Assembly: GCA_965206775.1 (NCBI GenBank)
Contig: CBDBKU010000003.1
Span: forward strand, 1,672,884-1,736,883
DNA from: Bryobacterales bacterium
GTDB lineage: Bacteria; Acidobacteriota; Terriglobia; Bryobacterales; UBA6623
Direction: 5' to 3'
DNA length: 64,000 nt
Of the stretch, positions 5,623 to 47,836 are shown in pieces; positions within the stretch are counted from its first letter, which is position 1, and each line of letters opens with the position of its first letter. Made by a program: the position numbers and the translations under genes. The notes under the pieces were generated by a model. That model had not been told where the DNA came from and did no database searches. It saw only the letters and a program-made list of their open reading frames with translations.

Positions 5623-6663
5623 CTATGTCCCCGGCAGCCCCTCTGGCAGAAAGCGGTAAACGGCGACGATGTAGAGGCAGTAGCCCGCAAGAAGGACGTA
5701 TCCGAAGCCGCGCCGCAAGACGTCCTTGGATACCAACACCCCCATCCGGAAAATGATCAGAATGAAGAGCATCGCTGGGAAGAGTACCGAGAAGAAGTTC
5801 CCGCCGGCATGAAGGCCGGCTGGAGTGACCGCCGCTGCGGCGCCTGCCACGAAGAGTACGTTCAGGATATCGGCCCCGATCACATTGCCCACGGCCAGCT
5901 CGCCTTGCCCGCGACGGGCAGCAGTCACCGCCGTAACGAGTTCAGGCAGGGACGTGCCGAAGGCGACCAGCGTTGCGGCTATCACGCTCTCTGGCACGGA
6001 AACGCGCATGGCCGCCTCGGTCACGCCGGGTATGACGAAGTGTGCCGACACGACGACGAAGGCAATCGCCGCGATCAGTTTCAGCAGCGTCAGCCAGGCT
6101 GGGCTTTGCTGCGGGCTGTCCGACTTTTCCGTCCCGGACCGCTGCTGGCCCGCCCAGCGCACCGAGACGTAGAGGTAGGCTGCGAGAAGCGCTAGAAGGA
6201 CGAAACCGCTCTCCTGGGCCAGCGTACCACCCGAGGTGAACAGTTGGTCCGGACGGGTCCAAGGCACGCTCAGCAGTACCAGAAGCAGGCCTGCGCTAAT
6301 TTGGATCCAGCCTTGGCGGTTTACGATCTTGGGATCGAGTCTCAGCGGCGCGATCAGGCATGCGACGCCCAAGATCAGGCCGGTGTCAGCAATGACCGAC
6401 CCGACCGCGTTGCCCAGTGCCAGGCCGGGAGACCCCTCGATCGCTGCCAGGACCGAGACCGCCGCTTCTGGTGCCGTGGTGCCGAGGCTGACAATCGTCG
6501 CCCCGACGACCATCGGCGGGATGCGCAGGCTCGCAGAAAGCTCGACCGCTTCGTCCACGAGCACGTCGGCGGCCTTGCCGAGAACCAGCAGCGATGCCGC
6601 AATGCTGGCTAGGAGAATCGACCAATGGACCTGCGAGAAAAAATGCGCGAGCGCGTCGTCCAT
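5623..6663 (-). CDS. Ca2+/Na+ antiporter, CaCA (YrbG-like) family
   Basis: A polytopic membrane protein with the two alpha-repeats GTTAPEAAVS...GNAVGS and GTSLPELVTA...GNVIGA. The start is ambiguous: I chose the ATG at 6663 (MDDALAHFF), while the ORF track extends to 6726. Confidence 0.8.
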   Translation of the reverse strand: MDDALAHFFSQVHWSILLASIAASLLVLGKAADVLVDEAVELSASLRIPPMVVGATIVSLGTTAPEAAVSVLAAIEGSPGLALGNAVGSVIADTGLILGVACLIAPLRLDPKIVNRQGWIQISAGLLLVLLSVPWTRPDQLFTSGGTLAQESGFVLLALLAAYLYVSVRWAGQQRSGTEKSDSPQQSPAWLTLLKLIAAIAFVVVSAHFVIPGVTEAAMRVSVPESVIAATLVAFGTSLPELVTAVTAARRGQGELAVGNVIGADILNVLFVAGAAAAVTPAGLHAGGNFFSVLFPAMLFILIIFRMGVLVSKDVLRRGFGYVLLAGYCLYIVAVYRFLPEGLPGT

Positions 6664-6762
6664 TCCGAATCTAGAGTCTATCGAATCTCGAGCATTCCGC
6701 CGTGCGCGACCGTCCGGATCAGGCACTTCGCACTACAATACGGACGGGAAGGCGAGAACCAC

Positions 6763-9700
6763 ATGTATCGGTATCCGCGCCTTGGTCGGGCACTGTTCGC
6801 TCCCGCGTTGGCGTTGCTGCTTTCGCTCACGGCGGTGGCGAGTGAAGCTGGCTTGGAGCACTTCGAGAAGAAAATCCGGCCTCTCCTTGCGGAGAATTGC
6901 TACGCGTGCCACGGCGCGGACGCTCCCAGTGTCTTCGCAAACCTGCGCCTCGACAGCCGAGCCGGGCTCCTGCGTGGAGGCGACTCGGGACCAGCTGTCG
7001 TGCCTGGCGACCCGGCCGCCAGCCTCCTCCTCCGGGCCGTGCGGGGCGAGGCGAAGTCCCTCATGCCCCCCACCGGCCGGCTTGATGCTGACCAGATCGC
7101 CGACCTTGCCGCATGGGTGGCGGCTGGCTCGCCCTGGCCCGACGAGCAGGCCCTGGGCCTGCCCGATCCGAGCGAGGCATTCGACCTCGAGCGGAGACGG
7201 CGGGAGCACTGGGCATGGCAACCGGTCCGCCCGACATCACCGCCCACTGTCCGGAACGAGGACTGGTCGCAATCGACTGTCGACCGATTCGTTTTGGCCC
7301 GGCTCGAGGAGAAGGGACTGGAACCAGCCCCTTCTGCAGATCGCCACACGCTCCTGCGCCGGCTCTCGTTTGCGTTGACCGGCTTGCCGCCGACCCCCAA
7401 GGAAATCGCCGACTTTCTCCAGGACGATTCTTCCCGGGCCGAGGAAACCGTCGTGGAGCGCCTTCTGTCATCGCCTCATTTCGGCGAGCGCTGGGCCCGC
7501 CACTGGATGGATCTGTTCCGCTACACCGAGTCGCACGGCAGCGAAGGAGACCCCGACATCCCAGAGGCGTGGCGCTACAGGGACTACCTCATCCGCGCGT
7601 TCAATGACGACGTGCCGTACGACCAGCTCGTGCGGGAGCACCTCGCCGGCGATCTTCTGCCGGAACCGCGCTACAACGAAGCGCTGGGACTGAATGAGTC
7701 GCTGCTTGGTACGGCGCAATACCGGATGATCGAGCATGGCTTCCAGCCAGTCGACCCATGGGAAGACAGGGTCAAGTGGACCGACAACCAGATCGACGTC
7801 GTTTCGAAAGCGTTCCAAGGCCTGACCGTCACCTGCGCTCGGTGCCACGATCACAAGTTCGACGCGATCAGCCAGAGCGACTACTATGCCCTGTTCGGCG
7901 TCTTGGGCAGCGCGCGTCCTGTCCAGCGGGCGGTGGACAGTCCGGACTTGCTGCGCAGGCATCAAGACGCGTTGCGGCAAGCGAAAGCTGGGATTCGGCC
8001 CGCCCTTGCGGCGGTTTGGACAGAAGCTGTCGACGGAATTCCCTCGAGGCTGCGGAAGGGCGATGAGGTGATTGCCCGTGCTCTCGAAGCCGCTGCCTGC
8101 GACCCGGATAGCCCGTTGTACCCATGGTTCGACTTGGGCGATCTGTCCGGGGAGGAAATCGAGGTCGGCTGGAAGCGCCTTAGGGACGACTGGAACCGGC
8201 AGCATGCTCTGCGGGAAGCGTTCAACGACGAGAAGTTCAACGCAATCTGGCGGCTCGACGAGGGGCTTTCGGGGTGGAAGCTCCTCGGAACAGGCATCGA
8301 GCAAGGCGCGTCGGAGGCAGGCGAGTTCTCGATCCTGCCCGACGGGGACCGCGTCGTCGAGGGTATTTACGGGTCCGGCGTCCACAGCGGCCTGCTCTCG
8401 CGACGGCACAACGGTGTGCTGCAGACCCCACGCTTCACGATCGACACCAACTACATCAGCTTCCTCGTGCAGGGGTCCGGTTTCAGCGTCGTCCGCCTGA
8501 TCGTGGAGAACTATGCCGTTCCGCGTGCCGGAATTTACTGGCAGCGCTACTCGCCGAAGTCGGACGCTCCGGTTTGGGCCGGCTGGGACACCACCTATTG
8601 GAAGGGGTTCAGCGCATACCTGGAGTTCGCCACGATGCAAGACGCCACCAACTTCCTGCTGGATAGGGAGGATGCGAGGAAGAAGCCGGCGCCCAAGCCC
8701 CCGACGGACGGGCGTTCGCATTTCGGCGCGCTGGCCGTGGCGTTCCACGACGGCTCCGAATCACCTAGGGATTCCGAGACGGCGATTGCATATCTGCTCG
8801 AAGGAGATCCGCCGAAGAGCGCGGACGAGCTGGCCCAGCGTTACGCTGAGCGCCTGCGGGATGCCGTTGACGCGTGGCGCGACGGACCGCTGCCACCACG
8901 CCAGGCGGCGTATCTCGACTTCTTTGTCCGAAATGGCCTCCTTCCGGTGTCCTCGGGGACGTCGGACCGCTTAGATGGCTTGGTTTCGGCGTATCGCGCA
9001 TTGGAAGAGGAGGTGCCGATCTACCGGCGCGCGCCGAGCGTGCTCGACGAAGCCGGGCCGGACCAGCCACTGCTGGTGCGGGGCAGCCACAAGGATCGTG
9101 GCGAGCCGGTTCCTCGCCGCTACCTGACGGCTTTCGGCGGCAAGCTCTACGCCGATCCTGCGACGACGCGGTTGCGGCTTGCCGAGGAGATGACCGACCC
9201 GCGGAATCCCCTGACCGCGCGGGTCATGGTCAACCGAGTGTGGAAGCACCTGTTCGGCCGGGGCCTCGTCGCGACGGTCGATAACTTCGGGCGCGTCGGC
9301 AATGCACCGTCTCATCCCGAACTCCTGGACTACCTGGCCGATCGGTTCGTGCAGGACGGCTGGTCACTCAAGAAGCTGATCCGCCGCCTTGTCCTGACCT
9401 CGACCTACCAACTCGACAGCGACCCCTCCGCCCCGTCCTCGCAAGTGGATCCGGGGAACGTGCTTCTGCAGCATATGCCAGTCCAGCGATTGGAAGGCGA
9501 GGCCATCAGGGACAGCCTGCTCGCGATTTCGGGCAGGCTGGACTCGAAGCTGCTTGGGCCTTCCGTGAACGTTTACTACGCCTTCGCCAAGGGCAAGACC
9601 AAGGGCGACCGGGTGAAGGGACCGCTCGACGGGGACGGCCGGCGCAGTGTCTACCAAGAGATCCGGCGCAACGCGCAAAATCCGTTCCTCGAGGTGTTCG

Positions 9701-10008
9701 ACCAGCCCAAGCCGTCTTCAACACGAGGGCAGAGGGACACGACGAACGTTCCGGCTCAATCCCTGACAATGCTCAACAGCCCAATGGTTCGCGCTCAGGC
9801 GGACCTGTGGGGGCAGCGCCTCGCAGAGAGGGCAGAGCCCGCCTCCGACACGGTCAAGTCGATGTTTCTCTCCGCTTTGGGGCGTCCTCCGGCCCCGCTG
9901 GAGCTCGATCGCAGCTTGGGCTATCTTGCAGAGAAGCCCGGAGCCGACGCGTGGTCAGATCTCGCTCATGCGATGTTCAACCTCAAGGAATTCCTCTACG
10001 TCCGCTAG
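6763..10008 (+). CDS. PSCyt1/DUF1549/DUF1553 family protein (cytochrome-c-like N-terminal domain)
   Basis: The ATG at 6763 gives a signal peptide (MYRYPRLGRALFAPALALLLSLTAVA). It has the heme-binding-like motif CYACHG and DUF1549-type motifs (LLRRLSFALTGLPPTPKEI, CARCHDHKFD). The DUF1553-type motif is NPLTARVMVNRVWKHLFGRGLV. Confidence 0.85.
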   Translation: MYRYPRLGRALFAPALALLLSLTAVASEAGLEHFEKKIRPLLAENCYACHGADAPSVFANLRLDSRAGLLRGGDSGPAVVPGDPAASLLLRAVRGEAKSLMPPTGRLDADQIADLAAWVAAGSPWPDEQALGLPDPSEAFDLERRRREHWAWQPVRPTSPPTVRNEDWSQSTVDRFVLARLEEKGLEPAPSADRHTLLRRLSFALTGLPPTPKEIADFLQDDSSRAEETVVERLLSSPHFGERWARHWMDLFRYTESHGSEGDPDIPEAWRYRDYLIRAFNDDVPYDQLVREHLAGDLLPEPRYNEALGLNESLLGTAQYRMIEHGFQPVDPWEDRVKWTDNQIDVVSKAFQGLTVTCARCHDHKFDAISQSDYYALFGVLGSARPVQRAVDSPDLLRRHQDALRQAKAGIRPALAAVWTEAVDGIPSRLRKGDEVIARALEAAACDPDSPLYPWFDLGDLSGEEIEVGWKRLRDDWNRQHALREAFNDEKFNAIWRLDEGLSGWKLLGTGIEQGASEAGEFSILPDGDRVVEGIYGSGVHSGLLSRRHNGVLQTPRFTIDTNYISFLVQGSGFSVVRLIVENYAVPRAGIYWQRYSPKSDAPVWAGWDTTYWKGFSAYLEFATMQDATNFLLDREDARKKPAPKPPTDGRSHFGALAVAFHDGSESPRDSETAIAYLLEGDPPKSADELAQRYAERLRDAVDAWRDGPLPPRQAAYLDFFVRNGLLPVSSGTSDRLDGLVSAYRALEEEVPIYRRAPSVLDEAGPDQPLLVRGSHKDRGEPVPRRYLTAFGGKLYADPATTRLRLAEEMTDPRNPLTARVMVNRVWKHLFGRGLVATVDNFGRVGNAPSHPELLDYLADRFVQDGWSLKKLIRRLVLTSTYQLDSDPSAPSSQVDPGNVLLQHMPVQRLEGEAIRDSLLAISGRLDSKLLGPSVNVYYAFAKGKTKGDRVKGPLDGDGRRSVYQEIRRNAQNPFLEVFDQPKPSSTRGQRDTTNVPAQSLTMLNSPMVRAQADLWGQRLAERAEPASDTVKSMFLSALGRPPAPLELDRSLGYLAEKPGADAWSDLAHAMFNLKEFLYVR

Positions 10009-13019: not shown

Positions 13020-13379
13020 ATGCTCCCTGGCTTCCTCTTACCCGAAACGACCGTAAATGCAAGTGGCTCAGGCGAGCCGTTCGAGATTGGTTCTGGTGGC
13101 GGCACCGCGCTGCTCTCCCTGGGCATCACCGAGATCGTCGAGCAGCAGAGCCTGGACATCGATGTCCTGGGTTCGGTCGACGGCGAGGAATGGCTGGAGC
13201 AGCCGATTCGAACCTTTCCTCAGAAGTTCTACACCGGCGTGTGGCAAGTCCTGTGCGACTTGGACGGCTGCTCCGAAGTCCGCTTTCTGAAGGTCGGCTA
13301 CAAGGTGGCGCGCTGGGGCGTTGGCTCCCTGACGCCAAAGTTCAGGTTCTACGTGTTCGCCGAGCGCTTCGAGGCCTGA
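13020..13379 (+). CDS. Hypothetical small protein (119 aa), no family recognised
   Basis: A clean ORF that fills the mutS2-smpB gap and has a non-repetitive, balanced composition. A TAGAAT -10-like hexamer lies at 12990 and a 7-bp hairpin (GGCGTTT/AAACGCC) lies just upstream of the ATG. Confidence 0.5.
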   Translation: MLPGFLLPETTVNASGSGEPFEIGSGGGTALLSLGITEIVEQQSLDIDVLGSVDGEEWLEQPIRTFPQKFYTGVWQVLCDLDGCSEVRFLKVGYKVARWGVGSLTPKFRFYVFAERFEA

Positions 13380-13386
13380 TAGGGCT

Positions 13387-13860
13387 CTACTTGCGCGTCC
13401 GGCGCCGCTCCACTGCTTCGCGGGCCTCGGATTCCTCGATCGCCTTGCGCTTGGCGTCGCGCTTGTCGTGGAGCTGCTTTCCCTTGGCTAGGGCGATCTC
13501 GCACTTGATCCTTCCGTTTGAGGCGTAGACCCGAGTCGGTATCAGGGTCAGGCCTTTCTGGCGGGTCTTGCCTTGCACGCGGTCGATCTCCTTGCGGTGC
13601 ATGAGCAGCTTGCGAGGGCGCACTGGCTCGGCATTGCCGATCGTGGCGTGGTCGTAGGGGGAGATGTGAGCGTTGTGCAGCCAGATCTCTCCGTTCTTGA
13701 CCGCCGCATACGCGTCCGACAATTGGATCTTGCCGTTGCGGCAGGACTTCACCTCGGCTCCGCTGAGGACTATGCCGGCTTCGAACCGCTCCAGGATCTC
13801 GAAGATCCGCCTCGCCCTGCGGTTGTCGGCGAAGTCGCTGCTTCCCTTGCGCTTGGCCAT
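13387..13860 (-). CDS. smpB: SsrA-binding protein
   Basis: 157 aa with GIVLSGAEVKS, ISPY and a basic C-terminal tail, all canonical SmpB features. Confidence 0.95.
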   Translation of the reverse strand: MAKRKGSSDFADNRRARRIFEILERFEAGIVLSGAEVKSCRNGKIQLSDAYAAVKNGEIWLHNAHISPYDHATIGNAEPVRPRKLLMHRKEIDRVQGKTRQKGLTLIPTRVYASNGRIKCEIALAKGKQLHDKRDAKRKAIEESEAREAVERRRTRK

Positions 13861-13916
13861 GTCCGTTCCACGGTCGGGAGCGTTCCTTCGTCTTGCATCT
13901 TTAGGCCGTCCCTACG

Positions 13917-16364
13917 ATGCGGATTCGGACTCCCTCTCTCAGCATGCCAGTATCGGGGCGTGGCCTGCGTTGCGCGGCCGTTCTGCTGGTCTTGCCGATG
14001 GTCGTGACTGAAGCCGCGCTGGCAGGCCCGCGGAACGCCAAGAGCCTCTACCGCCAGGGTCAGGCTGCGGAGCATTCGGGCCGTTTTGACGAGGCGTACG
14101 AGAAGTACAGCCTCGCGACAAGCGAGGCGCCGAACGTCCACCGATACACCCTGGCCGAGCGCCGCATGCGGTTCGTTGCCGCGCAGGCGCACGTCGAAAC
14201 CGGGGTGCGCCTGCGCGGGGAAGGGCTGTACGAGGAAGCCCTGGCAGAGTTCGAACGGGCGGTGACGATCGATCCGGCCTCCAGCGTTGCGGTGCAGGAG
14301 CGGCGCAGGACTCTCGGCATGATCGAGGAGCGCGACCAGGCGGCAGGTGGGGCGGCGGGAAGGCCGCCCGAGGCGCTCGAGAGTGCCCTTGAAGCCGAGC
14401 GCCACGAGCGAGGCGTGCGGGTGGGCACCATCACGCCTCCGCCCGACTTGGAGGCGCTATCGAACCAGCCGATCAACCTGATGCTCAACGAGCAGTCAAA
14501 GGTGATATTCGAGACGATCGGCAAGCTCGCCGGGATCAACATGCTGTTCGATCCGGACTACTCGGACCAAGAGATCGAGATCGAAATCCGCAACGCGACC
14601 CTGCCCGAGGCTCTGGACTACGTCAGCCTGCTCGCGAAGGCCTTTTGGAAGCCCCTCACGCACAACGCGGTGCTGGTGACCAACGACAACCCGAACAAGA
14701 GGCGCGAATACGAGGACGAGGTCGTCAAGACGATATACCTCACCAACCTCTCGACACCGCAGGACCTTTCGGAAGTGTCGACCGCGATACGCGGCCTGAC
14801 GGACATTCGGCGGATGTTCACCGTGAACTCGATGAACGCCATCGTGATGCGCGGGAGCCGCCCTAAGATTGCGATTGCCGAGAAGATCGTCCACGACATG
14901 GACAAACCGCGCGCGGAGGTGATCATCGACGTGCTGGTGCTCGAGACCAGCAAGACCAGGAAAAAGACGCTCGGCCTGACCCCGCTGTCCGGAGGCACTA
15001 AGGGCCTGCAGTTCCCGCTGACGTTTACCGGCGCGGCCGAGGCGGCTGCGAGCGGGTCCGTGGGGCTGCCGCTCAACCGGCTTGGCGACGTGGGGGTCGG
15101 AAGCTGGTCGACGTCCCTGCCGGGGTTCATGCTCTCGGCAATCTTCAGCAACTCGGACACGGAACTGCTGCAGTCCCCGCGCATTCGCACGGCGGACAAC
15201 CACCAGGCCGATCTCCGCATCGGCGACCAGGTGCCGATCGCGAGCGGCAGTTTCCAGCCTGGTGTTGGAGGCGTGGGGATCAGCCCATTGGTCAATACGC
15301 AGTTCCAATTCAAGGATGTCGGTGTCAACATTTCGCTGACTCCCAAGATCCACGCCAACCGGGATGTCTCGATGCACGTTGAGATCGAGATTTCCAACGT
15401 CAAGGACGTCGTCGATTTGGGCGGAATCTCCCAGCCGATCATCGGCCAGCGAACGATTCAGCATGACATTCGCGTCCGTGAAGGCGAGGCCAGCGTCATC
15501 GGAGGGCTGAACCAGTCCCAGATCTTCAAGACGAGGGCCGGCGTGCCGTTTCTCGGCGAGCTTCCGATTGTCGGGAGGCTGTTCAGCGAGGAGGATGTCC
15601 AGCGATTGGAGAGCGAGGTGCTGCTGGTGCTCGTGCCGCACATCGTGAGGATGCCCGGAATCGAGGAAAGCAACCTGCGGACCATCGCGACAGGAACCGA
15701 ACAGAAATTCGAGTTGCGGTACGAGCAGGCGGGCAATGGCAAGCCCGCATTCCCTCCGCTGGAGAAGGAATCCCCGGCTCCTGCCGAGCCTGCAGCCCTG
15801 TCCGCACCCGAAGTCCCCGAAGCGCCCGAGGACGCGCCGGCGCCCCAGCCGGGCCCTGGCCGTGCGGAAGCGTCGGCTGCAGAGCCTGACGCTCGGCCGG
15901 CGGAAGCGCCCGCAACCGCCGAGCCCGAAGTGTCGCAGGTGCCGCGGGGTCCGCGCATGTTCCTTGATCCGCCGGCTGCCGAAGTCAGTGTCGGCCAGGA
16001 AGTCACGTTGTCATTGATGGTCGGCGGCGCGGTCGCGCTCGCGGAAATGCCGTTGCGCATCCAGTACGATCGGGAGAAACTGCGACTGACCGGAATCGAG
16101 AAGGGTCCCTTCCTCGCCGGAGCGGATGCCAGCGACATTATCTTCTCGCGAAGCATTCGGCATGCGAACGGACTGGCCGCTGTCACGATTTCGCGTTTTC
16201 GCGGGACCGGCGGCGCAGACGGGCAAGGGGAGCTCGTCACCATGACGTTTGAAGGCCTTGCTGCGGGGCCCGCGCAGCTCCGAGTGTTCGCAACCGGGCC
16301 GCGAGACGGGTCCGGCTCGGCTTTGCGGGTCGATCCCTTGGAAGCGGAGATCGCGGTCGAGTAA
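13917..16364 (+). CDS. Secretin (GspD/PilQ family) with N-terminal TPR-like region and C-terminal cohesin-like domain
   Basis: It has a signal peptide and secretin N-domains. The secretin core reads GVPFLGELPIVGRLFS...LLVLVPHIV. A Pro/Ala-rich linker follows at about 15730-15956. The 135-aa C-terminal module (15957-16361) has a cohesin-like pattern (VSVGQEVTLSLMV...LRIQYDREKLRL...GELVTMTFEG). Confidence 0.85.
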   Translation: MRIRTPSLSMPVSGRGLRCAAVLLVLPMVVTEAALAGPRNAKSLYRQGQAAEHSGRFDEAYEKYSLATSEAPNVHRYTLAERRMRFVAAQAHVETGVRLRGEGLYEEALAEFERAVTIDPASSVAVQERRRTLGMIEERDQAAGGAAGRPPEALESALEAERHERGVRVGTITPPPDLEALSNQPINLMLNEQSKVIFETIGKLAGINMLFDPDYSDQEIEIEIRNATLPEALDYVSLLAKAFWKPLTHNAVLVTNDNPNKRREYEDEVVKTIYLTNLSTPQDLSEVSTAIRGLTDIRRMFTVNSMNAIVMRGSRPKIAIAEKIVHDMDKPRAEVIIDVLVLETSKTRKKTLGLTPLSGGTKGLQFPLTFTGAAEAAASGSVGLPLNRLGDVGVGSWSTSLPGFMLSAIFSNSDTELLQSPRIRTADNHQADLRIGDQVPIASGSFQPGVGGVGISPLVNTQFQFKDVGVNISLTPKIHANRDVSMHVEIEISNVKDVVDLGGISQPIIGQRTIQHDIRVREGEASVIGGLNQSQIFKTRAGVPFLGELPIVGRLFSEEDVQRLESEVLLVLVPHIVRMPGIEESNLRTIATGTEQKFELRYEQAGNGKPAFPPLEKESPAPAEPAALSAPEVPEAPEDAPAPQPGPGRAEASAAEPDARPAEAPATAEPEVSQVPRGPRMFLDPPAAEVSVGQEVTLSLMVGGAVALAEMPLRIQYDREKLRLTGIEKGPFLAGADASDIIFSRSIRHANGLAAVTISRFRGTGGADGQGELVTMTFEGLAAGPAQLRVFATGPRDGSGSALRVDPLEAEIAVE

Positions 16365-16370
16365 GAGGCG

Positions 16371-17111
16371 ATGGCGGAACCGACGAGAGTCTTTCGCGGG
16401 ACGCGTCGAATTGCGAGGCAACTCGCTCCGGGCTCGGGCGAGGCCGGTCTGACGCTAATTGAATTGATCGTGGCCTTCAGCCTGATGCTGATTCTGTCTG
16501 TAATGGCGCTGCCCGTCGCCCGCGTCAAGATTCAGCGGGAGAAGGAACGGCGCCTGCGCTACGCGCTGCACGAGATCCGCAAGGCGATCGACCGCCACAA
16601 GGACATGGCCGACGAGGGCAAGCTCGGCATGCTGGATCCCGACAATCACGGCTATCCGGAAAGCCTCGAGACGATGGTCGAGGGCGTGCGGATGGATCCT
16701 CAGGCCGGGAATCTGGCGCCTGGTGCCGCCGGCATGGGCTCCGGCTTGGGAGGGGGCCAGACGCGAGGCTTGGACACGAGTCGGAACCGTCCGGGGGCCT
16801 TCGGATCGAGTCGTGACTCTCCGGCCGCGTTCGGTTCCGGTCGCGACCGGTCCCGGGACGGGGCATTCGGCGGCCAAGGCGATCGCTTCGGCAGAGATGG
16901 AGATCCGTTCGACCGGGATGACGAAGGGCCGGAGACGATCCGCTTCCTCCGGTCGATTCCGGTCGACCCCATGACCGGCCAGAAGGAATGGGGCATGCTG
17001 TCGATCTCCGACGATCCGCTCGCACGCAGCTGGAGTGGACGCAACGTGTTCGACGTATACTCTCTCAGCGGCGGAATCGCGCTCGACGGCACGCGGTACG
17101 GCGAATGGTAG
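16371..17111 (+). CDS. Type II secretion/type IV pilin-like pseudopilin with internal low-complexity insert
   Basis: It has a prepilin-type N-terminal methylation motif (GLTLIELIVAF) and a GspG-like C-terminus (IPVDP...DGTRYGEW). A disordered G/F/R/D-rich insert of about 77 aa lies at nt 16701-16931. Confidence 0.75.
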   Translation: MAEPTRVFRGTRRIARQLAPGSGEAGLTLIELIVAFSLMLILSVMALPVARVKIQREKERRLRYALHEIRKAIDRHKDMADEGKLGMLDPDNHGYPESLETMVEGVRMDPQAGNLAPGAAGMGSGLGGGQTRGLDTSRNRPGAFGSSRDSPAAFGSGRDRSRDGAFGGQGDRFGRDGDPFDRDDEGPETIRFLRSIPVDPMTGQKEWGMLSISDDPLARSWSGRNVFDVYSLSGGIALDGTRYGEW

Positions 17112-17509
17112 TGGCAGAGCGATCCCGTCGCAAGGCTCGAAACGCGGGCTTCACGCTGTTGGAAATGATGGTCGTGATGACCATCATCGTGACGATCGTG
17201 TCGATCGCGGTTCCTTTCTACTCTTCCGCGATCGTTCGGGCGCGCGAGAGCGTCTTGCGGTCGAACCTCTTGACGATACGATCCGTGATCGACCAGTACA
17301 CCTACGACAAGGAGATCCCCCCGCAGTCGCTCGAGGACCTGGTTAACGAGGGGTACCTTCGGGAAGTGCCGATCGACCCCATCACTAACTCGCGCGATTC
17401 GTGGGACCTGATCGTGGAGACCGGTCCGACAGGGGAGTCCGGCTTGTTCGACGTGCGCAGCGGTTCAGACGAAACATCGCTCGCTGGCACGCCGTACAAC
17501 GAATGGTGA
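17105..17509 (+). CDS. GspG-like pseudopilin
   Basis: The ATG at 17105 overlaps the upstream gene by 7 nt. It has a classical prepilin motif (NAGFTLLEMMVVMTI) and the C-terminus PIDP...AGTPYNEW, paralogous to the preceding gene. Confidence 0.8.
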   Translation: MVVAERSRRKARNAGFTLLEMMVVMTIIVTIVSIAVPFYSSAIVRARESVLRSNLLTIRSVIDQYTYDKEIPPQSLEDLVNEGYLREVPIDPITNSRDSWDLIVETGPTGESGLFDVRSGSDETSLAGTPYNEW

Positions 17510-17554: not shown

Positions 17555-19330
17555 TTGGAAAATTCTATGAGTTCATTCGTAAAGGGTCTCCTCGCGGGCG
17601 TCCTGCTCGTGTTCGTTGTTACGGGACTCCTTGGCGCTGTCGTCGTCCTCGCAGGCCGGAGCGAGCCCGACATACCTTCGGATTCCGCTCTGGTCGTCCG
17701 ACTCGAAGGCGGCATTCCAGAACACATCGATGCGGAGCTGCCTGGATTCTTCTCGGGACGGAGCGATGACTCTGGCACAACACTGTACGGCCTGACGCAG
17801 GCAATTCGCAGGGCAGCCGAAGACGAGAACGTGAAGGCCCTCGTCCTGCGCTGCAACGGATCGGGAGCGGGCTGGGCCAAGGCTCAGGAGGTCCGCTGGG
17901 CGATTCAGGCTTTCAAGGAGTCCGGCAAGCCAGTTTGGGCGTATCTGGCGCTCGCGGGCAGGGAAGGATACTACATCTCCTCCCTGGCAGACCGCGTTGC
18001 GATCCAGCCCGAGAGCTTCCTCAACCTGAGCGGTCTGCGCGCCGAAGTCATGTTCTTCAAGGGTGCGCTCGACAAGCTCGGCGTCCAGGCCGACCTGATT
18101 CGAAGCGGCAAGTACAAGAGCGCCGGAGAGCCGTTTACGCGCGATGAGATGTCGCCAGATTTCCGCGAGGCAATGAACGTGACGCTCGACGAGTTCTACG
18201 GCCAGCTCCTTGATGGAATTGCCAAGGGCCGCGGGCGTGATGCCGAACACTGGAGAGCGATCCTGGACGAAGGGCCCTACACGGTAGCCGAAGCTGAGAC
18301 CCACGGCCTAGTGGACGACGTCATGTACGAAGACGTGTTCTACGAGCAATTGAGCGAGGCCGTCGACGTCGAGGACGTTCACAGAATCGGCGTGGCCCGG
18401 TATGCCGGAAAAGCGGATAGCACGCGCAGCGGCGGCCGGAAGAAGATTGCGATGCTGCACGCGATCGGCAGGATCACGAGCGGGTCCAGCTGGACCGATC
18501 CGTTCAGCGGGCAGCACGAGACCCTGGGCGCGGAGACCTTTGAGTCGCAACTCGAGCGACTGCGCGAAGACGACGATGTCGAGGGCGTGATCCTGCGCAT
18601 CGACTCGCCCGGCGGTGACGCGATTGCCTCGGACCAGATGCTGCACGCCGTTCGCCGGCTTAGCGAGGAAAAGCCGCTCGTCGTCTCGATGTCCACGCTG
18701 GCCGCATCCGGCGGGTACTACATCGCGTCTGTCCCGGACGTGCCGATCGTCGCGTATCCGGGAACCTACACGGGATCGATCGGGGTGTTCACGATCCACT
18801 TCAACTTGCGGAAGCTGTATGACAAGCTTGGAATCAGCAAGGACATTTTGACGAGAGGCCGTTTCGCGGCCGTCGATTCCGACTACAAGTCGATGACTCC
18901 TGCAGAGAGAGAGAAGCTCTCCCGCTACGTGACGGCTATCTACGAAGCGTTCCTGGCGCGGGTTTCCGAAGGCCGGGGAGTCGATGCCAATTCGATCCAC
19001 GAACTGGCTCAGGGGCGCGTTTGGGTCGGCAACCAAGCTTTGGCCAACGGGCTGGTCGACGAACTTGGCGGCTACGACAAGGCCATCGAGTTGGTGAAGG
19101 AAGCAGCCGAGATCGGAGAGGACGAGGCCGTGCAGGTCGTGCATTACCCTCCGCGGCGAACGCTGTTCGAAACGCTGTTCTCGGGAGGCCGTCAAGTCGC
19201 CCTGCGGGAGGTGCTGGAGACTCCGCTGCTCGGTGAGGCCTACAGGACTTGGACCCAAGCCCTGGGCTGGGCCCGGCGGCTTCGCGGAGGTCCGATGTAC
19301 ATGGCGCCATACACGCTGAGCGTCGATTAG
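17555..19330 (+). CDS. sppA: Signal peptide peptidase SppA, 67K type (tandem S49 domains)
   Basis: 591 aa with an N-terminal transmembrane segment and two S49 peptidase repeats. The second repeat carries SMSTLAASGGYYIAS. Confidence 0.85.
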   Translation: MENSMSSFVKGLLAGVLLVFVVTGLLGAVVVLAGRSEPDIPSDSALVVRLEGGIPEHIDAELPGFFSGRSDDSGTTLYGLTQAIRRAAEDENVKALVLRCNGSGAGWAKAQEVRWAIQAFKESGKPVWAYLALAGREGYYISSLADRVAIQPESFLNLSGLRAEVMFFKGALDKLGVQADLIRSGKYKSAGEPFTRDEMSPDFREAMNVTLDEFYGQLLDGIAKGRGRDAEHWRAILDEGPYTVAEAETHGLVDDVMYEDVFYEQLSEAVDVEDVHRIGVARYAGKADSTRSGGRKKIAMLHAIGRITSGSSWTDPFSGQHETLGAETFESQLERLREDDDVEGVILRIDSPGGDAIASDQMLHAVRRLSEEKPLVVSMSTLAASGGYYIASVPDVPIVAYPGTYTGSIGVFTIHFNLRKLYDKLGISKDILTRGRFAAVDSDYKSMTPAEREKLSRYVTAIYEAFLARVSEGRGVDANSIHELAQGRVWVGNQALANGLVDELGGYDKAIELVKEAAEIGEDEAVQVVHYPPRRTLFETLFSGGRQVALREVLETPLLGEAYRTWTQALGWARRLRGGPMYMAPYTLSVD

Positions 19331-29668: not shown

Positions 29669-29729
29669 ATCGGATCGATAGCCTCGGTACGACGCTCCCC
29701 TCGGGGCAGTGTCCATCCAAAGGAGATTG

Positions 29730-32168: not shown

Positions 32169-32356
32169 CGGCCCAGTCTAGGGCTATGCCGTAGCCGATT
32201 CGCTCCGCGTTAACCGCCTGAATCGGCGATTGTATCCAAGACAATGCCGATGACAACGCCGTGCAATCTCTTTATGTTCTTGTTTGGCCTGATTTCGAGC
32301 CCCGCCCTGAATGTGCTGACCACGTGCTGTCCACTAGTGTTGACAGATTGCCTCGC

Positions 32357-34336
32357 ATGCGATATCATCGGGCTGTGTTCGTCCGGCGCGTCGAAACTCG
32401 CTCCAAAGGCTCCGCCAGCGGTGTCGCTTACCGCTTGGTCCACTCCCAGCGCCAGGGCCCCAAGGTCCGCCAGCTGATCCTCGCCCATTTCCGTAGCGGC
32501 CTCGAGCAACGCGTCCCCCAAAGCCACTGGAAGCAGCTCGCCGCCGCCATCAAGGACTCTCTCACCGGACAGGCCCGCCTGCCATCCGCGCCCGCAGCCG
32601 ACCCTGAAACTCTCGCTCTCGCCCAGCGCATCGCCACCGAGGCCGCCGTCATCGCCCCCCTCGTGCGCAGCCGCCTCCGCGACGCCGGTTACGACCTCGG
32701 CTTCCGCATCGCCGACGACACTCCGCCCCAGCCGCCGACCGAATCCCCGCTCGCCCTGCTGCCCTCCACCCTGCGCCACACCAACACGCGCGAGGCCGGT
32801 GCCGCCCGCCTGCTCGACCTGCTGGCCCGCGAGCTCGGCCTGCGCGAGTGCCTCCTCCAGTGCGGCCTGCGCCCCCGCCACGTCCGCCTGGGCCTCGCCC
32901 AGATCCTGGCCCGCGCCCTGCATCCGGGCAGCGAGCGCGAGACCCTGCGCTGGCTGCGCGAGGACTCCGCGCTCGGCGAACTGCTCGGCCTCGAGCCCGC
33001 CGATCTCTCCTCCAACTCCCTGTATGTCGCCGCCGACGCCCTTTGGAAGCACCGCGACTCCATCGAGCGGGCCTTGTTCGACCGCGAGCGCGACTTGTTC
33101 GGCCTGCAGCCGCGCATCGTCTTCTACGACCTCTCCAACACCTTCCACACCGGACGGCCCCGGCATCGCTACGCCGCCCATGGACGCTCCCAGCAGAAGC
33201 GCCACGACTGCCCGCTGGTCAGCTTGGGGCTGCTGCTGGACGGGCAGGGCTTCCCGCGCCGCTCGGAGGTGCTGGCCGGCAATGTGGGCGAGGCGGGCAC
33301 GCTGCAGGCGGCGATCGCGCGGCTGGACAGGGTCGCGGGCGAGCGCCCGACGGTGGTGTTCGATGGCGGGATCACGAGTGCGGCAAACCTAGCCTGGCTG
33401 CGGGAGCAGGGCCTGCACTGGATCACGCTCGAGCGGCGGCGCAAGCCGGCCCCGGAACGCGAGCCCGACACGGAGTGGGAGAGCGCTGGCGGTCACGAGC
33501 TGAAGATCTGGCGGCTGGCAGCGACGGAGGCCGGCGAGGCGGAGGCCTCCGCACAGGCAGCGGCGGGCGGGGAGGCGCGCCTGTGCGTGTGGAGTCCGGC
33601 CCGGGACAAGGACGAGCAGTCGCTGCTGGATCGCAAGCGGGAGCGCTTCGAGGCGGCACTGCGCTCGCTGCACGCAGGGCTGAGCGTGAAGGGCCGGCTG
33701 AAGGCCTTCGACAAGGTGACGCGCAAAGTCGGGCGGATCGAGGAGACGCACAAGCTGGTGGCGTGCCAGTACACGGTGACGGTGCAAGCCGGGGAGAAAG
33801 GCAAGGCCGCGGCGGTGCAATGGGAGCCGAACCAGCGGTACCGGGAGCGCGACCGGGTCCAAGGCACGAGCCTGCTGCGCACGAGCCGGGTGGATTGGGA
33901 CGACCAGCGGATCGTGCGGGAATACTGCCGCCTGGCCGACATCGAGGCGACCTTCCGCTCGTTCAAGGACGAGCTGGGCCTGCGCCCGATCTACCACAGT
34001 CTAGGCGAGCGGGTCGCGGGACACCTGTTCCTGACCGTGCTGGCGTACCACCTGGTGCACGCCTTGCGCTATCGCCTGCGTGCGCGAGGGATCAGCTGGA
34101 GCTGGAAGTCGATCCGGAATCGGATGCGCACCTGGATGCGGCTGACCACCACGATGCGGACGGCTCAGGGGAAGGTTTGGAGCCAGCGCCAGGACGTGGA
34201 CCCGAATCCGGAGCAGGCACGCATCGCCGCCGCTGCGGGGCTGAGCTTCCGACGCCACCCCCGCACCGTGCCCGTGGATCAAGGCAAGATCCAAACGGAC
34301 CGAGAAAGCGAGGCAAGTCCCAGCAACAAAGTGTAG
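32357..34336 (+). CDS. IS1634-family (IS4 superfamily) DDE transposase
   Basis: 659 aa from the ATG at 32357. The N-terminus MRYHRAVFVRRVETRSKGSASGVAYRLVHSQRQG follows the IS1634 pattern (FxRxVxxKxKGKxYxYxLVES.R). The C-terminus LFLTVLAYHLVHALR is typical of DDE_Tnp_1. Confidence 0.8.
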   Translation: MRYHRAVFVRRVETRSKGSASGVAYRLVHSQRQGPKVRQLILAHFRSGLEQRVPQSHWKQLAAAIKDSLTGQARLPSAPAADPETLALAQRIATEAAVIAPLVRSRLRDAGYDLGFRIADDTPPQPPTESPLALLPSTLRHTNTREAGAARLLDLLARELGLRECLLQCGLRPRHVRLGLAQILARALHPGSERETLRWLREDSALGELLGLEPADLSSNSLYVAADALWKHRDSIERALFDRERDLFGLQPRIVFYDLSNTFHTGRPRHRYAAHGRSQQKRHDCPLVSLGLLLDGQGFPRRSEVLAGNVGEAGTLQAAIARLDRVAGERPTVVFDGGITSAANLAWLREQGLHWITLERRRKPAPEREPDTEWESAGGHELKIWRLAATEAGEAEASAQAAAGGEARLCVWSPARDKDEQSLLDRKRERFEAALRSLHAGLSVKGRLKAFDKVTRKVGRIEETHKLVACQYTVTVQAGEKGKAAAVQWEPNQRYRERDRVQGTSLLRTSRVDWDDQRIVREYCRLADIEATFRSFKDELGLRPIYHSLGERVAGHLFLTVLAYHLVHALRYRLRARGISWSWKSIRNRMRTWMRLTTTMRTAQGKVWSQRQDVDPNPEQARIAAAAGLSFRRHPRTVPVDQGKIQTDRESEASPSNKV

Positions 34337-34398
34337 TGCCTTCAAATCCACTTGGCGGAATTCTTGGTCAATAGAATCAATGACTTACAAATGTGAAT

Positions 34399-34436
34399 CA
34401 CCGATTTTCATTTCCAATATAGAGACCTAATTTTGG
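34399..34436. repeat. Left terminal inverted repeat of the nested IS
   Basis: CACCGATTTTCATTTCCAATATAGAGACCTAATTTTGG aligns with the reverse complement of 36486-36521 with a few mismatches and indels. Confidence 0.75.
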
Positions 34437-34471
34437 CGATAAAGCCAAGCACGAGCGACGCCCCATGGGAT

Positions 34472-36191
34472 TCATGATCGGGAAGCTCCGTTAAAGACGA
34501 GTTGGCGGTTGCCCAGCCAGGGGATGCGCGTGGTGCCGACGGTCTGGAGGGCCTCCAGCAGGGCGGGCAGGTCCCGTTTCTTCTTCAGCGAGACGGTGCA
34601 CAGGTCCGGTGTGAGGGAGATGTCGGCGGCGGTGCAGAGGAGCTTCTCGTAGAGCGAGCGGGCGGTGAGCTGGCGGTAGCCGGGCGGAAGATCGAGGGCG
34701 AGCAGGCGCAGGAGATTGTAAGCGAGGACGGTCATGGCAAGGTCGAAATCGACCTTGATGACCATGGAGGAGGAGAGGAGGTGGAAGAAGGCGAGCTGCT
34801 CGGCAATGGATTGCTCGACGAGCCAGCGGCGGGCGTAGCGGCGCAGGATGGCGGCAAGGCTGGAGTCGAAATCGTTGGTGAGCAGCAGGGAGGGGCGCCG
34901 GTGTTCGCCGCGCAGGATGGTGATCTGGCGCAATTCGCCGCCGAAGTCGCGCAGCGCGACAGTTGCGTCGTGGGCGGTGACCAGGCGCGTGCCCGAGGCA
35001 GCGGGGACACGGATGCTGCGCAAGGAGGACTTGTCGAGAGCGCGCGCGTTGGCGAGCAGGCGCTTGCCGCGGCGGCGGACGGTGACGAACAGGATGCCTT
35101 CCTGGTCGAGGCGGGCGAGGCTGGCGTAGGTGGTGAAACGGCTGTCGAAGACGAGGTAGCGGATGGGCGGGCCGTGGCGGCGGGAGAAGTCGAGGAACTC
35201 GAGGGCGGTGCCGGCGCTGGTCTCATTGCGGACGCTGCTGGCGTCGGCCTGCAGGAGCAGGCCGGAGTCGGGGTCCTGGGCGAGGGCGGCGGAGATGCTG
35301 ACGAGGGAGCGGCCGCGAGTGCCGGACCAATGCCTTTGCAGGGTGGCGTCATCGCCCCAGTGGGGCAAGGTGGTGAAATCGAGGTTGGCGGAGTCGCCGG
35401 CGAGGCCCTTGGCGGTCCAGATGGAGGCGAGGGCACCGAGCAGGCGCTGGTTCATGGCGCGCGTGGTGCGATCGGAATACGAGGAAAGCGAGGCGGTCTT
35501 GGGCAGGACGTTGAGGCCGGCGAAGAGGCCGAGGCCGCGATCCATGCACCACAGGTCGTCGGCGCTGTAGCGGCGGGCATCGGAGAGCTTGAGGGCGACG
35601 AAGGCGAGCACCGACTGCAGGGCCGGCAGGGTGCGGGTGCCGGGGTAGCCGGCCTCGGCGATCGCGGTGTCGAGGCCGTAGCGGCGGATCCAGGGCAGCA
35701 GGCAGAGCGTGCCGGCGGCGCGCTCGGACTGGAAAGTCTCCTCCGCGCGCGGGTCGAGCAAGACGCTCGCGGGAGCGCGCAGGCGGGGCGCGGGTGCGGC
35801 GGGGCAGGCGCTGGAAGCCCTCCTCGCGCAAGACATGCCCGATCGCGCGCAGGCTGGGAGCGTCGCGCAGTTCGGCGTCGAGGCGGGCCTTGATGTCGGG
35901 CAGGGACAGGTTCGCCTTGCGCAATTCGATCACGCGCTGGCGCACGTCCGGCAGCGGCAGGACAGGAACGCGACCGGGGGCCTCGGGTGGTCGGAAGAAG
36001 AACGCGGCCTGGTCGTCCAGACGGCGGAAGTCGCGGGTCATCGCATAAACCGAGCCGATGGCATAGCCGAAGCGCCGGGCGACGGCCTCGGCGGAGAGGC
36101 CCTCGAAGCAGAAGGCGCGCAGGACTTCGTACCGCCGTTGGAGCGGGTTGGCAGGCTGGGCAAAGAATGAGGCGTCGGACTGGGAGGACAT
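34472..36191 (-). pseudogene. Transposase of the nested IS (N-terminal HTH plus DDE_Tnp_1-like core), split by a +1 frameshift
   Basis: The N-terminal frame runs from 36191 to about 35790 (MSSQSD...GFQRLPRRTR). The C-terminal frame runs from about 35764 to 34472 and is displaced by +1 nt. It carries the motif YARRWLVEQSIAEQ (Y-2-R-3-E). The junction lies in the GC-rich GCGCCCCGCC tract. Confidence 0.7.
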
Positions 36192-47831: not shown

Positions 47832-47836
47832 GAAGT

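What the first reader, a model, noticed from the sequence alone, without database searches (positions are those of the whole stretch)
13917..17509. Secretin fused to a C-terminal cohesin-like domain, with two pseudopilins but no ATPase or platform genes
The 815-aa secretin has a normal GspD/PilQ core that ends near 15650. It continues through a Pro/Ala-rich linker of about 75 aa into a 135-aa beta-sandwich-like module. The sequence pattern of that module (VSVGQEVTLSLMV..., LRIQYDREKLRL, GELVTMTFEG, LRV) resembles cohesin domains. Placed after the secretin C-terminus, the domain would be displayed outside the channel, where it could dock dockerin-bearing cargo or matrix proteins. The only other machinery genes nearby are two GspG-like pseudopilins, overlapping by 7 nt, followed by sppA. 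I did not see GspE/PilB, GspF/PilC or a prepilin peptidase. I am not aware of a functional description of a secretin-cohesin fusion.
Basis: partly seen in the sequence, partly recalled or inferred. Interest (0 to 1): 0.6.

Follow-up and report, generated by a model that had tools for sequence, protein, structure and literature searches.

The report
Secretin with a tethered cohesin module
An outer-membrane secretion channel protein of soil and marine Acidobacteria (order Bryobacterales) carries a real cohesin docking module on a long flexible tether at its C-terminus; the fusion is conserved across the order, uncharacterised, and the module most likely sits inside the periplasm rather than on the cell surface.

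Summary
ORF 13917..16364 encodes an 815-aa protein with this layout: signal peptide, TPR module, two periplasmic ring domains, secretin core ending at aa 578-580, an acidic Pro/Ala-rich disordered tether, and a C-terminal cohesin.

- **Cohesin evidence:** Pfam scores 24.6 bits against a cut-off of 24.1. The AF2 model has pLDDT 93, and all 50 best PDB fold matches are cohesins (TM 0.65-0.80).
- **Not an artefact:** 72 GTDB species, all Bryobacterales/Terriglobia, and the cultured Paludibaculum fermentans keep the same single ORF. They also keep the layout smpB (divergent) | secretin-cohesin | long pseudopilin | short pseudopilin.
- **Missing machinery:** no ATPase, platform protein or prepilin peptidase lies in the 64-kb window. 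No GspE/PilB-type Walker A motif lies in the flanks of 77 related loci.

In solved secretins the C-terminal S-domain is periplasmic. I therefore infer that 12-15 tethered cohesins hang under the outer membrane as a docking crown, not a surface display. The partner is unknown, and no dockerin was found in about 1 Mb of related DNA.

NCBI already labels these proteins "cohesin domain-containing protein", and I found no functional study. This is a new variant of a known kind, of moderate interest.

The parts
13387..13860 (-). smpB, the divergent neighbour. It is adjacent to the secretin gene in every related locus whose contig reaches that far.
   Evidence: PF01668 SmpB. tblastn found it in 70 of 72 genome loci; the two exceptions are contig ends. 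It is also present in L076, L077, L078 and the P0228 contig.
13917..14018 (+). Signal peptide (aa 1-34, ...VVTEAALA|GPRN). There is no lipobox cysteine after the hydrophobic core.
   Evidence: Read from the sequence. The family consensus is A-x-A|G. This is an inference; no signal-peptide predictor was run.
14019..14345 (+). N-terminal TPR-like helical module (aa 35-143).
   Evidence: Pfam TPR_2 at aa 41-73 (37 bits) and TPR_8 at aa 102-121. AF2 helices span aa 14-143 with pLDDT >90. Column conservation is 0.70.
14472..14684 (+). First periplasmic ring-type domain (aa 186-256), with beta-alpha-beta-beta-alpha-beta-beta order, which is N0/STN-like.
   Evidence: AF2 secondary structure, pLDDT about 80-89. 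M. xanthus PilQ 3jc8 aligns from query aa 200. No Pfam STN hit was obtained, so the N0 assignment is an inference.
14721..14915 (+). Second ring domain (aa 269-333), Secretin_N / N3-N1-like.
   Evidence: Pfam Secretin_N at aa 272-333, 22.2 bits, below the 28.2 cut-off; homologues score up to 38 bits. AF2 gives a beta-alpha-beta-beta-alpha order.
14916..15656 (+). Secretin beta-barrel core (aa 334-580).
   Evidence: PF00263 E 4e-37. TIGR02517 GspD scores 164 bits, below the equivalog cut-off of 351. Best PDB relatives are XcpQ 5wln (E 7.6e-27) and PilQ 6ve2 (E 6e-16).
15657..15950 (+). A short conserved post-barrel segment (aa 581-612), followed by an acidic Pro/Ala-rich disordered tether (aa 613-678). 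No S-domain helices are present.
   Evidence: AF2 pLDDT <50 over aa 586-674. In 53 homologues the tether is 54-111 aa (median 67), about 49% P+A, 16% acidic and 2% basic, with conservation 0.38.
15951..16364 (+). C-terminal cohesin module (aa 679-815, plus the stop codon).
   Evidence: PF00963 scores 24.6 bits against a cut-off of 24.1; homologues reach 58 bits. The AF2 model has pLDDT 93.3. The top 50 Foldseek PDB hits are all cohesins. Conservation peaks on beta5 (0.90) and beta6 (0.94).
16371..17111 (+). Long pilin-like protein pp1 (prepilin motif GEAG|LTLIELIVAF), with a Gly/Phe/Arg/Ser-rich low-complexity insert.
   Evidence: N_methyl scores 19.4 bits, below the 21.2 cut-off, but G-1 and E+5 are present. 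It is a paralogue of pp2 at about 35% identity. The insert ranges from 0 to about 125 aa among orthologues.
17105..17509 (+). Short pilin-like protein pp2 (NAG|FTLLEMMVV), with a GspG-like layout. It is the most conserved gene of the operon.
   Evidence: N_methyl scores 29.5 bits, above the cut-off; TIGR01710 GspG scores 38 bits over the N-terminal half only. The mature length is 120 aa in nearly all 72 loci, with 59-95% identity. The 7-nt overlap with pp1 is read.
17555..19330 (+). sppA (signal peptide peptidase S49). It is a neighbour only and not part of the conserved unit.
   Evidence: PF01343 E 3e-77. It is downstream in 24 of 72 loci only. In more distant loci it is replaced by Sua5, G6PD or an AP endonuclease.

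Best explanation
**What it is.** The gene encodes the outer-membrane secretin of a split type II secretion / type IV filament-like machine in Bryobacterales (Acidobacteriota). It is co-transcribed with two paralogous GspG-like pseudopilins. The assembly ATPase, platform protein and prepilin peptidase that such pilins require must be encoded elsewhere; this is inferred.

**How it differs from a classical secretin.** The secretin lacks the classical C-terminal S-domain. In its place it carries a 55-110 aa acidic Pro/Ala-rich disordered tether ending in a true cohesin-fold module.

**Where the cohesin sits.** In all solved secretins the C-terminus leaves the barrel wall on the periplasmic side, just under the outer membrane. 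The assembled 12-15-mer should therefore carry a crown of 12-15 cohesins swinging in the periplasm on tethers of roughly 15-25 nm. This is inferred by homology.

**What it does.** The strongly conserved beta3/beta5/beta6 region, which includes three of the four strands of the canonical dockerin-binding sheet, is proposed to dock a partner protein. That would take over the job done in other secretins by the S-domain-pilotin contact or by accessory anchors such as GspB/OutB or TsaP. Possible roles are secretin targeting and assembly, anchoring to the wall or inner-membrane platform, or capture of a periplasmic client.

**Shown versus inferred.**
- Shown: domain architecture, cohesin fold, conservation, synteny, and the local absence of motor genes.
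- Inferred: periplasmic location, multimer number, docking function, and the identity of the partner.
For: - **Architecture:**
- **Cohesin fold:**
- **Conservation of the single ORF and of the smpB|secretin-cohesin|pp1|pp2 unit:** 72 species, distant (<50% identity) members, and cultured Paludibaculum fermentans.
- **All 10 long single-cohesin C-terminal hits** in an exhaustive profile search are Secretin+Cohesin. Five are full length and also carry the TPR module.
- **Conservation within the cohesin** is concentrated on beta5 (0.90) and beta6 (0.94), with the adjoining loops, beta3 and beta7 at 0.72-0.83, while beta1, beta2, beta8 and beta9 vary. The tether is variable in sequence but always present at 54-111 aa.
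- **No S-domain helices** appear in the full-length model.
- **Topology precedent:** only the beta-lip/AHL of secretins enters the outer membrane, and the C-terminal S-domain is periplasmic and binds a lipoprotein pilotin (PMC6532946).
- **No motor genes nearby:** no GspE/PilB-type Walker A motif within the flanks of 77 loci, and none of these families in the window.
Against: - No partner has been identified.
- No dockerin-like sequence was found in the operon, in the window, or in about 1 Mb of related loci. That is far from a whole genome.
- The periplasmic location is by homology only. No acidobacterial secretin has been solved.
- The secretin class is ambiguous. The core scores best with GspD but below the equivalog cut-off, whereas having two ring domains resembles PilQ.
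- The Pfam cohesin score of this particular protein is only just above the cut-off.
- Whether the ATPase and platform exist elsewhere in the genome could not be checked.
Confidence: 0.45

Rival explanations
1. Surface display. The cohesin is exposed outside the cell on top of the channel and anchors dockerin-bearing secreted enzymes or matrix proteins, like a cellulosome anchor.
For: The module is a real cohesin whose closest structural relatives bind dockerins. Its nearest non-secretin sequence relatives are multi-cohesin proteins, several of which carry T9SS sorting tails, and some carry dockerins, so they are presumably extracellular. The long Pro/Ala linker resembles scaffoldin linkers; that comparison is from my own knowledge.
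Against: In solved secretins only the beta-lip/AHL touches the outer membrane and the C-terminal S-domain is periplasmic (PMC6532946). There is no extra membrane-spanning segment between the barrel and the cohesin, because aa 586-674 is disordered, acidic and Pro/Ala-rich. No dockerin was found in the sequences available.
Confidence: 0.12
2. Non-dockerin structural role. The cohesin-fold beta-sandwich binds peptidoglycan or a polysaccharide, or associates with itself or with the protein's own TPR or ring domains. It would then form a stabilising or spacing belt around the channel, with no separate protein partner.
For: Secretins often need wall anchors or belts, for example the AMIN domains of PilQ, GspB/OutB, TsaP, and the DR_1364 belt in Deinococcus (abstracts listed). 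TPR and cohesin co-occur in every full-length member examined. No dockerin was found nearby.
Against: A 54-111 aa disordered tether is a poor basis for a rigid belt. Conservation is concentrated in a patch on beta5/beta6 and the neighbouring loops, with several invariant Arg and Asp residues, which looks more like a specific protein interface. No carbohydrate-binding family was matched.
Confidence: 0.25
3. Artefact. A frameshift or misassembly has joined a secretin gene to a separate cohesin gene.
For: A few short stand-alone cohesin fragments (100-225 aa) lie on long contigs. These could be split genes.
Against: The same uninterrupted ORF of about 770-850 aa occurs in 72 species-level genomes, many of them on megabase-scale contigs or chromosome-level records. 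It also occurs in a cultured isolate and in the 240 full-length-type hits listed from the two searches.
Confidence: 0.01

Closest known systems
Type II secretion secretin GspD (e.g. P. aeruginosa XcpQ, PDB 5wln; V. vulnificus EpsD)
   Same: The secretin core and the preceding ring domain align over aa 304-578 (E 7.6e-27). GspD is the best NCBIfam model (164 bits). The gene is encoded next to GspG-like pseudopilins.
   Different: - The score is below the GspD equivalog cut-off of 351.
- There are only two ring domains instead of N0-N3.
- An N-terminal TPR module is present.
- There is no S-domain; a disordered tether plus cohesin takes its place.
- It is not encoded with gspC/E/F/L/M.
Type IV pilus secretin PilQ (M. 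xanthus 3jc8, P. aeruginosa 6ve2)
   Same: It has two ring domains before the barrel; 3jc8 aligns over query aa 200-580. It also has an extra N-terminal module ahead of the ring domains.
   Different: The N-terminal module is TPR, not AMIN. The core scores lower than against GspD (111 vs 164 bits). There is no pilMNOP upstream, and a C-terminal cohesin is present.
Cohesin modules (non-cellulosomal A. fulgidus 2xdh; C. thermocellum type I cohesins 1aoh, 1ohz, 3kcp)
   Same: It shares the nine-strand beta-sandwich fold, with TM 0.75-0.80 and rmsd 2.6-3.2 A over about 140 columns, and it passes the Pfam PF00963 cut-off.
   Different: Sequence identity is only 11-17%. The module is a single copy fused to an outer-membrane channel and is predicted to be periplasmic. 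No dockerin partner is known, and the GTGG-rich beta6-beta7 loop is family-specific.
Secretin S-domain / pilotin and accessory anchors (PulS/AspS pilotins; TPR pilotins PilF/Tgl/TadD; GspB/OutB; TsaP)
   Same: It is a C-terminal appendage of a secretin positioned to contact a helper protein under the outer membrane. A TPR module is also associated with the secretin.
   Different: Here both the TPR and the docking module are fused to the secretin itself. The fold is a cohesin, not a helix-turn-helix. No helper protein has been identified.

Membership tests
Secretin (PF00263) | Secretin C-domain profile match above the gathering score | tested here: met
   127.8 bits against a cut-off of 27.5, over aa 410-578. 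Solved secretins of T2SS, T4P, T3SS, Tad and phage pIV all match.
GspD, T2SS secretin equivalog (TIGR02517) | Full-length match above the curated cut-off, including N0-N3 | tested here: not met
   164.2 bits against a cut-off of 351.35. Only model positions 289-593 matched, which correspond to N3 plus the core.
GspD, T2SS secretin | C-terminal S-domain (helix-turn-helix that binds a pilotin) | tested here: not met
   There are no helices after aa 587 in the AF2 model. Residues 586-674 are disordered and are followed by the cohesin.
Complete T2SS / T4P gene cluster | Secretin encoded together with the GspE/PilB ATPase, the GspF/PilC platform and a prepilin peptidase | tested here: not met
   None is present in the 64-kb window. 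No GPTGSGKT-type Walker A motif lies within the flanks of 77 related loci. Genome-wide presence could not be tested.
PilQ subfamily (TIGR02515) | Match above the curated cut-off | tested here: not met
   111.5 bits against a cut-off of 284.35.
Cohesin (PF00963) | Profile match above the gathering score | tested here: met
   24.6 bits against 24.1 for this protein. Orthologues score 24.7-58 bits. A family profile hits only cohesins at the top of the PDB list (E 0.006-0.012).
Cohesin | Nine-stranded jelly-roll beta-sandwich fold | tested here: met
   The AF2 model has pLDDT 93.3. The top 50 Foldseek PDB hits are all cohesins, with TM 0.65-0.80.
Cohesin | Calcium-dependent binding of a dockerin through the 8-3-6-5 sheet | not testable with these tools
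   Conservation peaks on beta5 and beta6 and includes beta3. However, no dockerin was found in the sequence available, and no complex prediction was possible.
Type IV pilin / pseudopilin (PF07963 N_methyl; TIGR02532) | Prepilin leader ending in Gly, a hydrophobic N-terminal helix, and Glu at +5 | tested here: met
   pp2 scores 29.5 bits against a cut-off of 21.2. pp1 scores 19.4 bits, just below the cut-off, but G|LTLIE with Glu at +5 is invariant in 70+ orthologues.
GspG major pseudopilin (TIGR01710 / PF08334) | Match of the globular domain above the cut-off | tested here: not met
   pp2 scores 38.3 bits against a cut-off of 88.85, over the N-terminal half only, and there is no T2SSG Pfam hit. 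The GspG-like motifs (GYLR.VP.DP, FDV.SGSD, terminal W) are seen by eye only.

The most novel reading that the evidence does not exclude
The crown of tethered periplasmic cohesins acts as a modular receptor that recruits specific clients to the mouth of the secretin through a cohesin-dockerin-type interaction. The clients could be cargo carrying a dockerin-like tag, or the inner-membrane platform itself. This would define a distinct acidobacterial secretion subtype in which recognition is delegated to a plug-in docking module rather than to GspC and the N0 domain.
Probability: 0.2. Interest if true: 0.75.

Novelty: new variant of a known kind. Interest (0 to 1): 0.5.

Why it matters
- **Secretion signals.** How type II-like systems recognise partners and cargo is still poorly understood, and nearly all structural work is on Proteobacteria. 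An order-wide secretin that has swapped its S-domain for 12-15 tethered copies of a high-affinity docking module would be a natural experiment in how the outer-membrane channel is coupled to other components.
- **Cohesin biology.** It would extend cohesins from extracellular cellulosome-type scaffolds to the periplasm of a diderm.
- **Tractability.** The operon is small and always sits next to smpB. It is present in the cultured Paludibaculum fermentans, so pull-downs, deletions and cryo-EM are feasible.
- **Scope.** It is not a one-off. Thousands of metagenomic homologues exist, and public annotation already flags the cohesin. The value lies in the hypothesis rather than in the discovery of the domain.

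Tried and rejected
- **Literature.** Nine full-text searches found no description of the fusion: secretin+cohesin, cohesin+GspD, noncellulosomal cohesin, Acidobacteria T2SS, Bryobacter/Solibacter, and sponge Acidobacteriota cohesin/dockerin. One search gave only the secretin topology reference. Peer et al. 2009, the survey of non-cellulosomal cohesins, is not held.
- **Dockerin search.** I ran phmmer with two dockerins taken from hits P0134 and P0147, plus a duplicated Ca-loop regex, over six-frame translations of the window and 77 loci (1.02 Mb). There were no hits. This is a weak negative because it is not a whole genome.
- **pp1 insert as the cohesin partner.** Rejected. The insert is absent in distant members and in P. 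fermentans, which still keep the cohesin.
- **sppA as part of the system.** Rejected. It is present in only 24 of 72 loci.
- **Profile search with A1 through the word-indexed database.** It returned only short fragments and was uninformative.
- **Full-length fold search.** It does not discriminate between secretin classes, because TM scores are low for a monomer model.
- **afdb50 fold library.** Not available.
- **Promoter/terminator and tRNA/tmRNA scans.** Nothing above background.
- **Frameshift artefact.** Rejected on conservation.


Full report

Yes. The six-frame ORF list gives a single ATG-initiated ORF at 13917..16364 (+) of 815 aa.

- Pfam finds TPR repeats (aa 41-73 and about 102-121), a weak Secretin_N (aa 272-333), Secretin (aa 410-578, E 4e-37) and Cohesin PF00963 (aa 686-790, 24.6 bits against a gathering score of 24.1).
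- The best solved relative by sequence is the P. aeruginosa T2SS secretin XcpQ (5wln), aligned over aa 304-578.
- The segment between core and cohesin is 51% Pro+Ala and 19% acidic.
- Two pilin-like genes follow. The first is 16371..17111, with GEAG|LTLIELIVA. The second is 17105..17509, with NAG|FTLLEMMVV. Its ATG overlaps the first gene's stop in the string ATGGTAG, which is 7 nt.
- sppA follows at 17555..19330.
- Pfam scans of the large ORFs over the window found ordinary metabolic genes, planctomycete-type PSCyt/PSD/DUF1501 genes, transposases and a sigma factor. They found no GspE/PilB, GspF/PilC, prepilin peptidase or dockerin.

**2. Is the C-terminal module a cohesin?**

Yes, at the level of sequence family and fold.

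- I aligned the last 145 aa of 47 non-redundant homologues (A1).
- The AF2 model built from that alignment is confident (pLDDT 93.3, pTM 0.86) and all-beta.
- Foldseek against the PDB returns cohesins only in the top 50. The first is the non-cellulosomal cohesin of Archaeoglobus fulgidus (2xdh, E 3.7e-10, TM 0.75). Clostridial type I cohesins reach TM 0.80.
- A profile of A1 against PDB sequences places only cohesins in its top four, though weakly (E 0.006-0.012).
- Orthologues score up to 58 bits on PF00963, so the borderline score of this protein is not a chance hit.

**3. Is the fusion real and how widespread is it?**

- A search with the whole protein finds 2150 proteins at E<1e-5. The best 120 are nearly all about 770-915 aa with TPR+Secretin, and the Pfam cohesin flag is set in more than half. 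The C-terminal domain aligns in the 121 sequences of at least 770 aa.
- An exhaustive HMMER search of 1.84 billion cluster representatives with A1 gives 6592 hits at E<1e-3.
  - All ten long hits I tested that carry a single C-terminal cohesin are Secretin+Cohesin proteins. The five full-length ones also carry TPR and Secretin_N.
  - The highest total scores belong to unrelated multi-cohesin, scaffoldin-like proteins. Five of the ten I tested carry T9SS sorting tails, and two carry dockerins.
- A scan of one genome per GTDB species finds 72 loci. All are named Bryobacterales, Terriglobia or Acidobacteria.
- A search started from a distant member (P0196) finds 2588 more hits. These include proteins that NCBI names 'cohesin domain-containing protein' from Paludibaculum fermentans, Bryobacteraceae and Candidatus Solibacter sp., and that JGI names 'general secretion pathway protein D'.
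- The frameshift or assembly-artefact reading is excluded.

**4. Gene neighbourhood**

- tblastn of the window's proteins against the 72 genome loci shows the same order everywhere the contig allows: smpB (divergent), secretin-cohesin, long pilin (pp1), short pilin (pp2).
- The same holds for members below 50% identity (P0228, P0196, P0195) and for the cultured P. fermentans.
- sppA and efp follow in only 24 of 72 loci. Elsewhere Sua5, G6PD or an AP endonuclease follow.
- pp2 is the most conserved gene, at 59-95% identity. Its mature length is 120 aa in nearly every locus, starting GFTL[LV]E and ending G[TS]xYxEW.
- pp1 and pp2 are paralogues at about 35% identity. They share the layout 'YLR.IP.DP ... 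FDV.S.S ... DGT.Y.EW'. By eye this resembles GspG, although only the N-terminal half scores on the GspG model and no T2SSG Pfam hit is obtained.
- No GspE/PilB-type Walker A motif lies in the flanks of any of the 77 loci; the only match is FtsK.
- The conserved unit is therefore a three-gene operon that always lacks its motor.

**5. Anatomy of the secretin**

The full-length AF2 model (mean pLDDT 70.9; individual domains are high) gives these parts:

| Residues | Feature |
|---|---|
| 14-143 | helices (signal peptide plus TPR, pLDDT >90) |
| 186-256 | beta-alpha-beta-beta-alpha-beta-beta domain, the strand order of N0/STN domains |
| 269-328 | beta-alpha-beta-beta-alpha ring domain |
| 334-578 | secretin barrel elements |
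| 586-674 | disordered stretch |
| 680-814 | cohesin |

- There is no helix-turn-helix S-domain.
- M. xanthus PilQ aligns from aa 200 to 580, covering both ring domains. The core scores better on GspD than on PilQ (164 vs 111 bits), and both are below their cut-offs. The class is therefore ambiguous: a GspD-like core with a PilQ-like number of ring domains.
- Across 53 homologues, column conservation is 0.79 for the core, 0.77-0.83 for the ring domains, 0.70 for TPR, 0.67 for the cohesin and 0.38 for the tether. The tether is nevertheless always present, at 54-111 aa.
- Within the cohesin, conservation is concentrated on beta5 (0.90), beta6 (0.94), the 4-5 and 6-7 loops, beta3 and beta7. The invariant residues are P42, R44, D70, I72, F73, S74, R78, G82, A84, A85, R90 and a GTGG loop. 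Beta1, beta2, beta8 and beta9 are variable.
- In cellulosomal cohesins the dockerin binds the 8-3-6-5 sheet; this comes from established knowledge and was not tested here. Three of those four strands are the conserved ones.

**6. Where is the cohesin, and what does it do?**

- In the solved T2SS secretins only the beta-lip and amphipathic helical loop enter the outer membrane. The rest is periplasmic. The C-terminal S-domain packs on the outside of the barrel and binds a lipoprotein pilotin (PMC6532946).
- Nothing between the barrel and the cohesin could cross a membrane, because the tether is acidic, Pro/Ala-rich and disordered.
- I therefore infer that the cohesin is periplasmic. The multimer would carry 12-15 copies, the range seen in the solved secretins, on tethers long enough to reach the wall or the inner-membrane platform. 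About 67 residues is roughly 15-25 nm if extended.
- The most likely function is docking of a partner protein through the conserved beta3/5/6 patch. That would replace the S-domain-pilotin contact or the accessory anchors of other secretins (GspB/OutB, TsaP; abstracts).
- The fused N-terminal TPR recalls the TPR pilotins PilF, Tgl and TadD. This is a resemblance only.
- The partner is unknown. It is not the low-complexity insert of pp1, which is missing in lineages that keep the cohesin.
- No dockerin was detected in the operon, the window or about 1 Mb of related loci. That does not test whole genomes.
- Confidence in the periplasmic docking model is about 0.45. The alternatives are surface display (about 0.12), a non-dockerin structural or wall-binding role (about 0.25) and artefact (about 0.01).

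**7. Comparison with what is known, and novelty**

- The protein is a member of the secretin family, and its C-terminal domain is a member of the cohesin family.
- It fails the curated GspD and PilQ equivalog or subfamily thresholds, and it lacks the S-domain and the clustered machinery.
- Public annotation already flags the cohesin, so the domain combination is not a discovery.
- I found no functional or structural description in the held literature.
- It is best called a new variant of a known kind: an order-wide secretin subtype with fused TPR and tethered cohesin, in a minimal operon with two pseudopilins beside smpB.
- Interest is moderate (0.5). It is surprising enough to motivate experiments in P. 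fermentans, but the mechanism remains an inference and the motor and partner are unidentified.

Noticed in passing
window 16653-16940 (within pp1, 16371..17111); also L002, L043, L064: The long pseudopilin carries a variable Gly/Ser/Arg/Gln/Phe-rich insert of 0 to about 125 aa. It is built of degenerate 'xFGxxxx' repeats, for example SFGSNRQS x4 in L002 and GGFGQQG x6 in L043. The insert sits in the loop before the 'RFLR.IP.DP' motif. It is absent in distant members and in P. fermentans. An FG-repeat-like disordered loop in a pilin is unusual and unexplained.
   Followed up: partly
window 13387-13916 and all related loci: The secretin operon is always divergently adjacent to smpB (trans-translation), with only about 56 bp between the two start codons here. 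This adjacency is conserved from the window's clade to members below 50% identity and to Paludibaculum fermentans. No functional link is known. No tmRNA gene lies in the window.
   Followed up: partly
window 29709-31820: The alkaline phosphatase PhoX appears split into two ORFs: 29709..31160 matches profile positions 2-366, and 31323..31820 matches positions 392-515. This could be a pseudogene, a frameshift or a sequencing error.
   Followed up: no
window 32261-35836: Two DDE transposase ORFs lie at 32261..34336 (+) and 34472..35836 (-). The region has raised GC (0.67-0.69) and a GC-skew spike (0.21), so these are probably insertion sequences.
   Followed up: no
window 6625-10008, 41369-43627, 44601-50963: There are several planctomycete-type PSCyt/PSD (DUF1549/DUF1553/DUF1585-1595), DUF1501 and DUF1552 (HXXSHH) genes. 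They form two apparent pairs or trios, together with sulfatases, in an acidobacterial genome.
   Followed up: no
window 13020-13379: A 119-aa ORF lies between mutS2 and smpB. It was called as a gene in the ENA contig but has no Pfam family, and it is not conserved next to the operon in distant loci.
   Followed up: no
proteins P0276, P0286, P0294, P0296: Short proteins of 100-220 aa consist only of this cohesin subtype and are encoded on long contigs (31-116 kb). They may be split secretin genes or genuine stand-alone cohesins.
   Followed up: no
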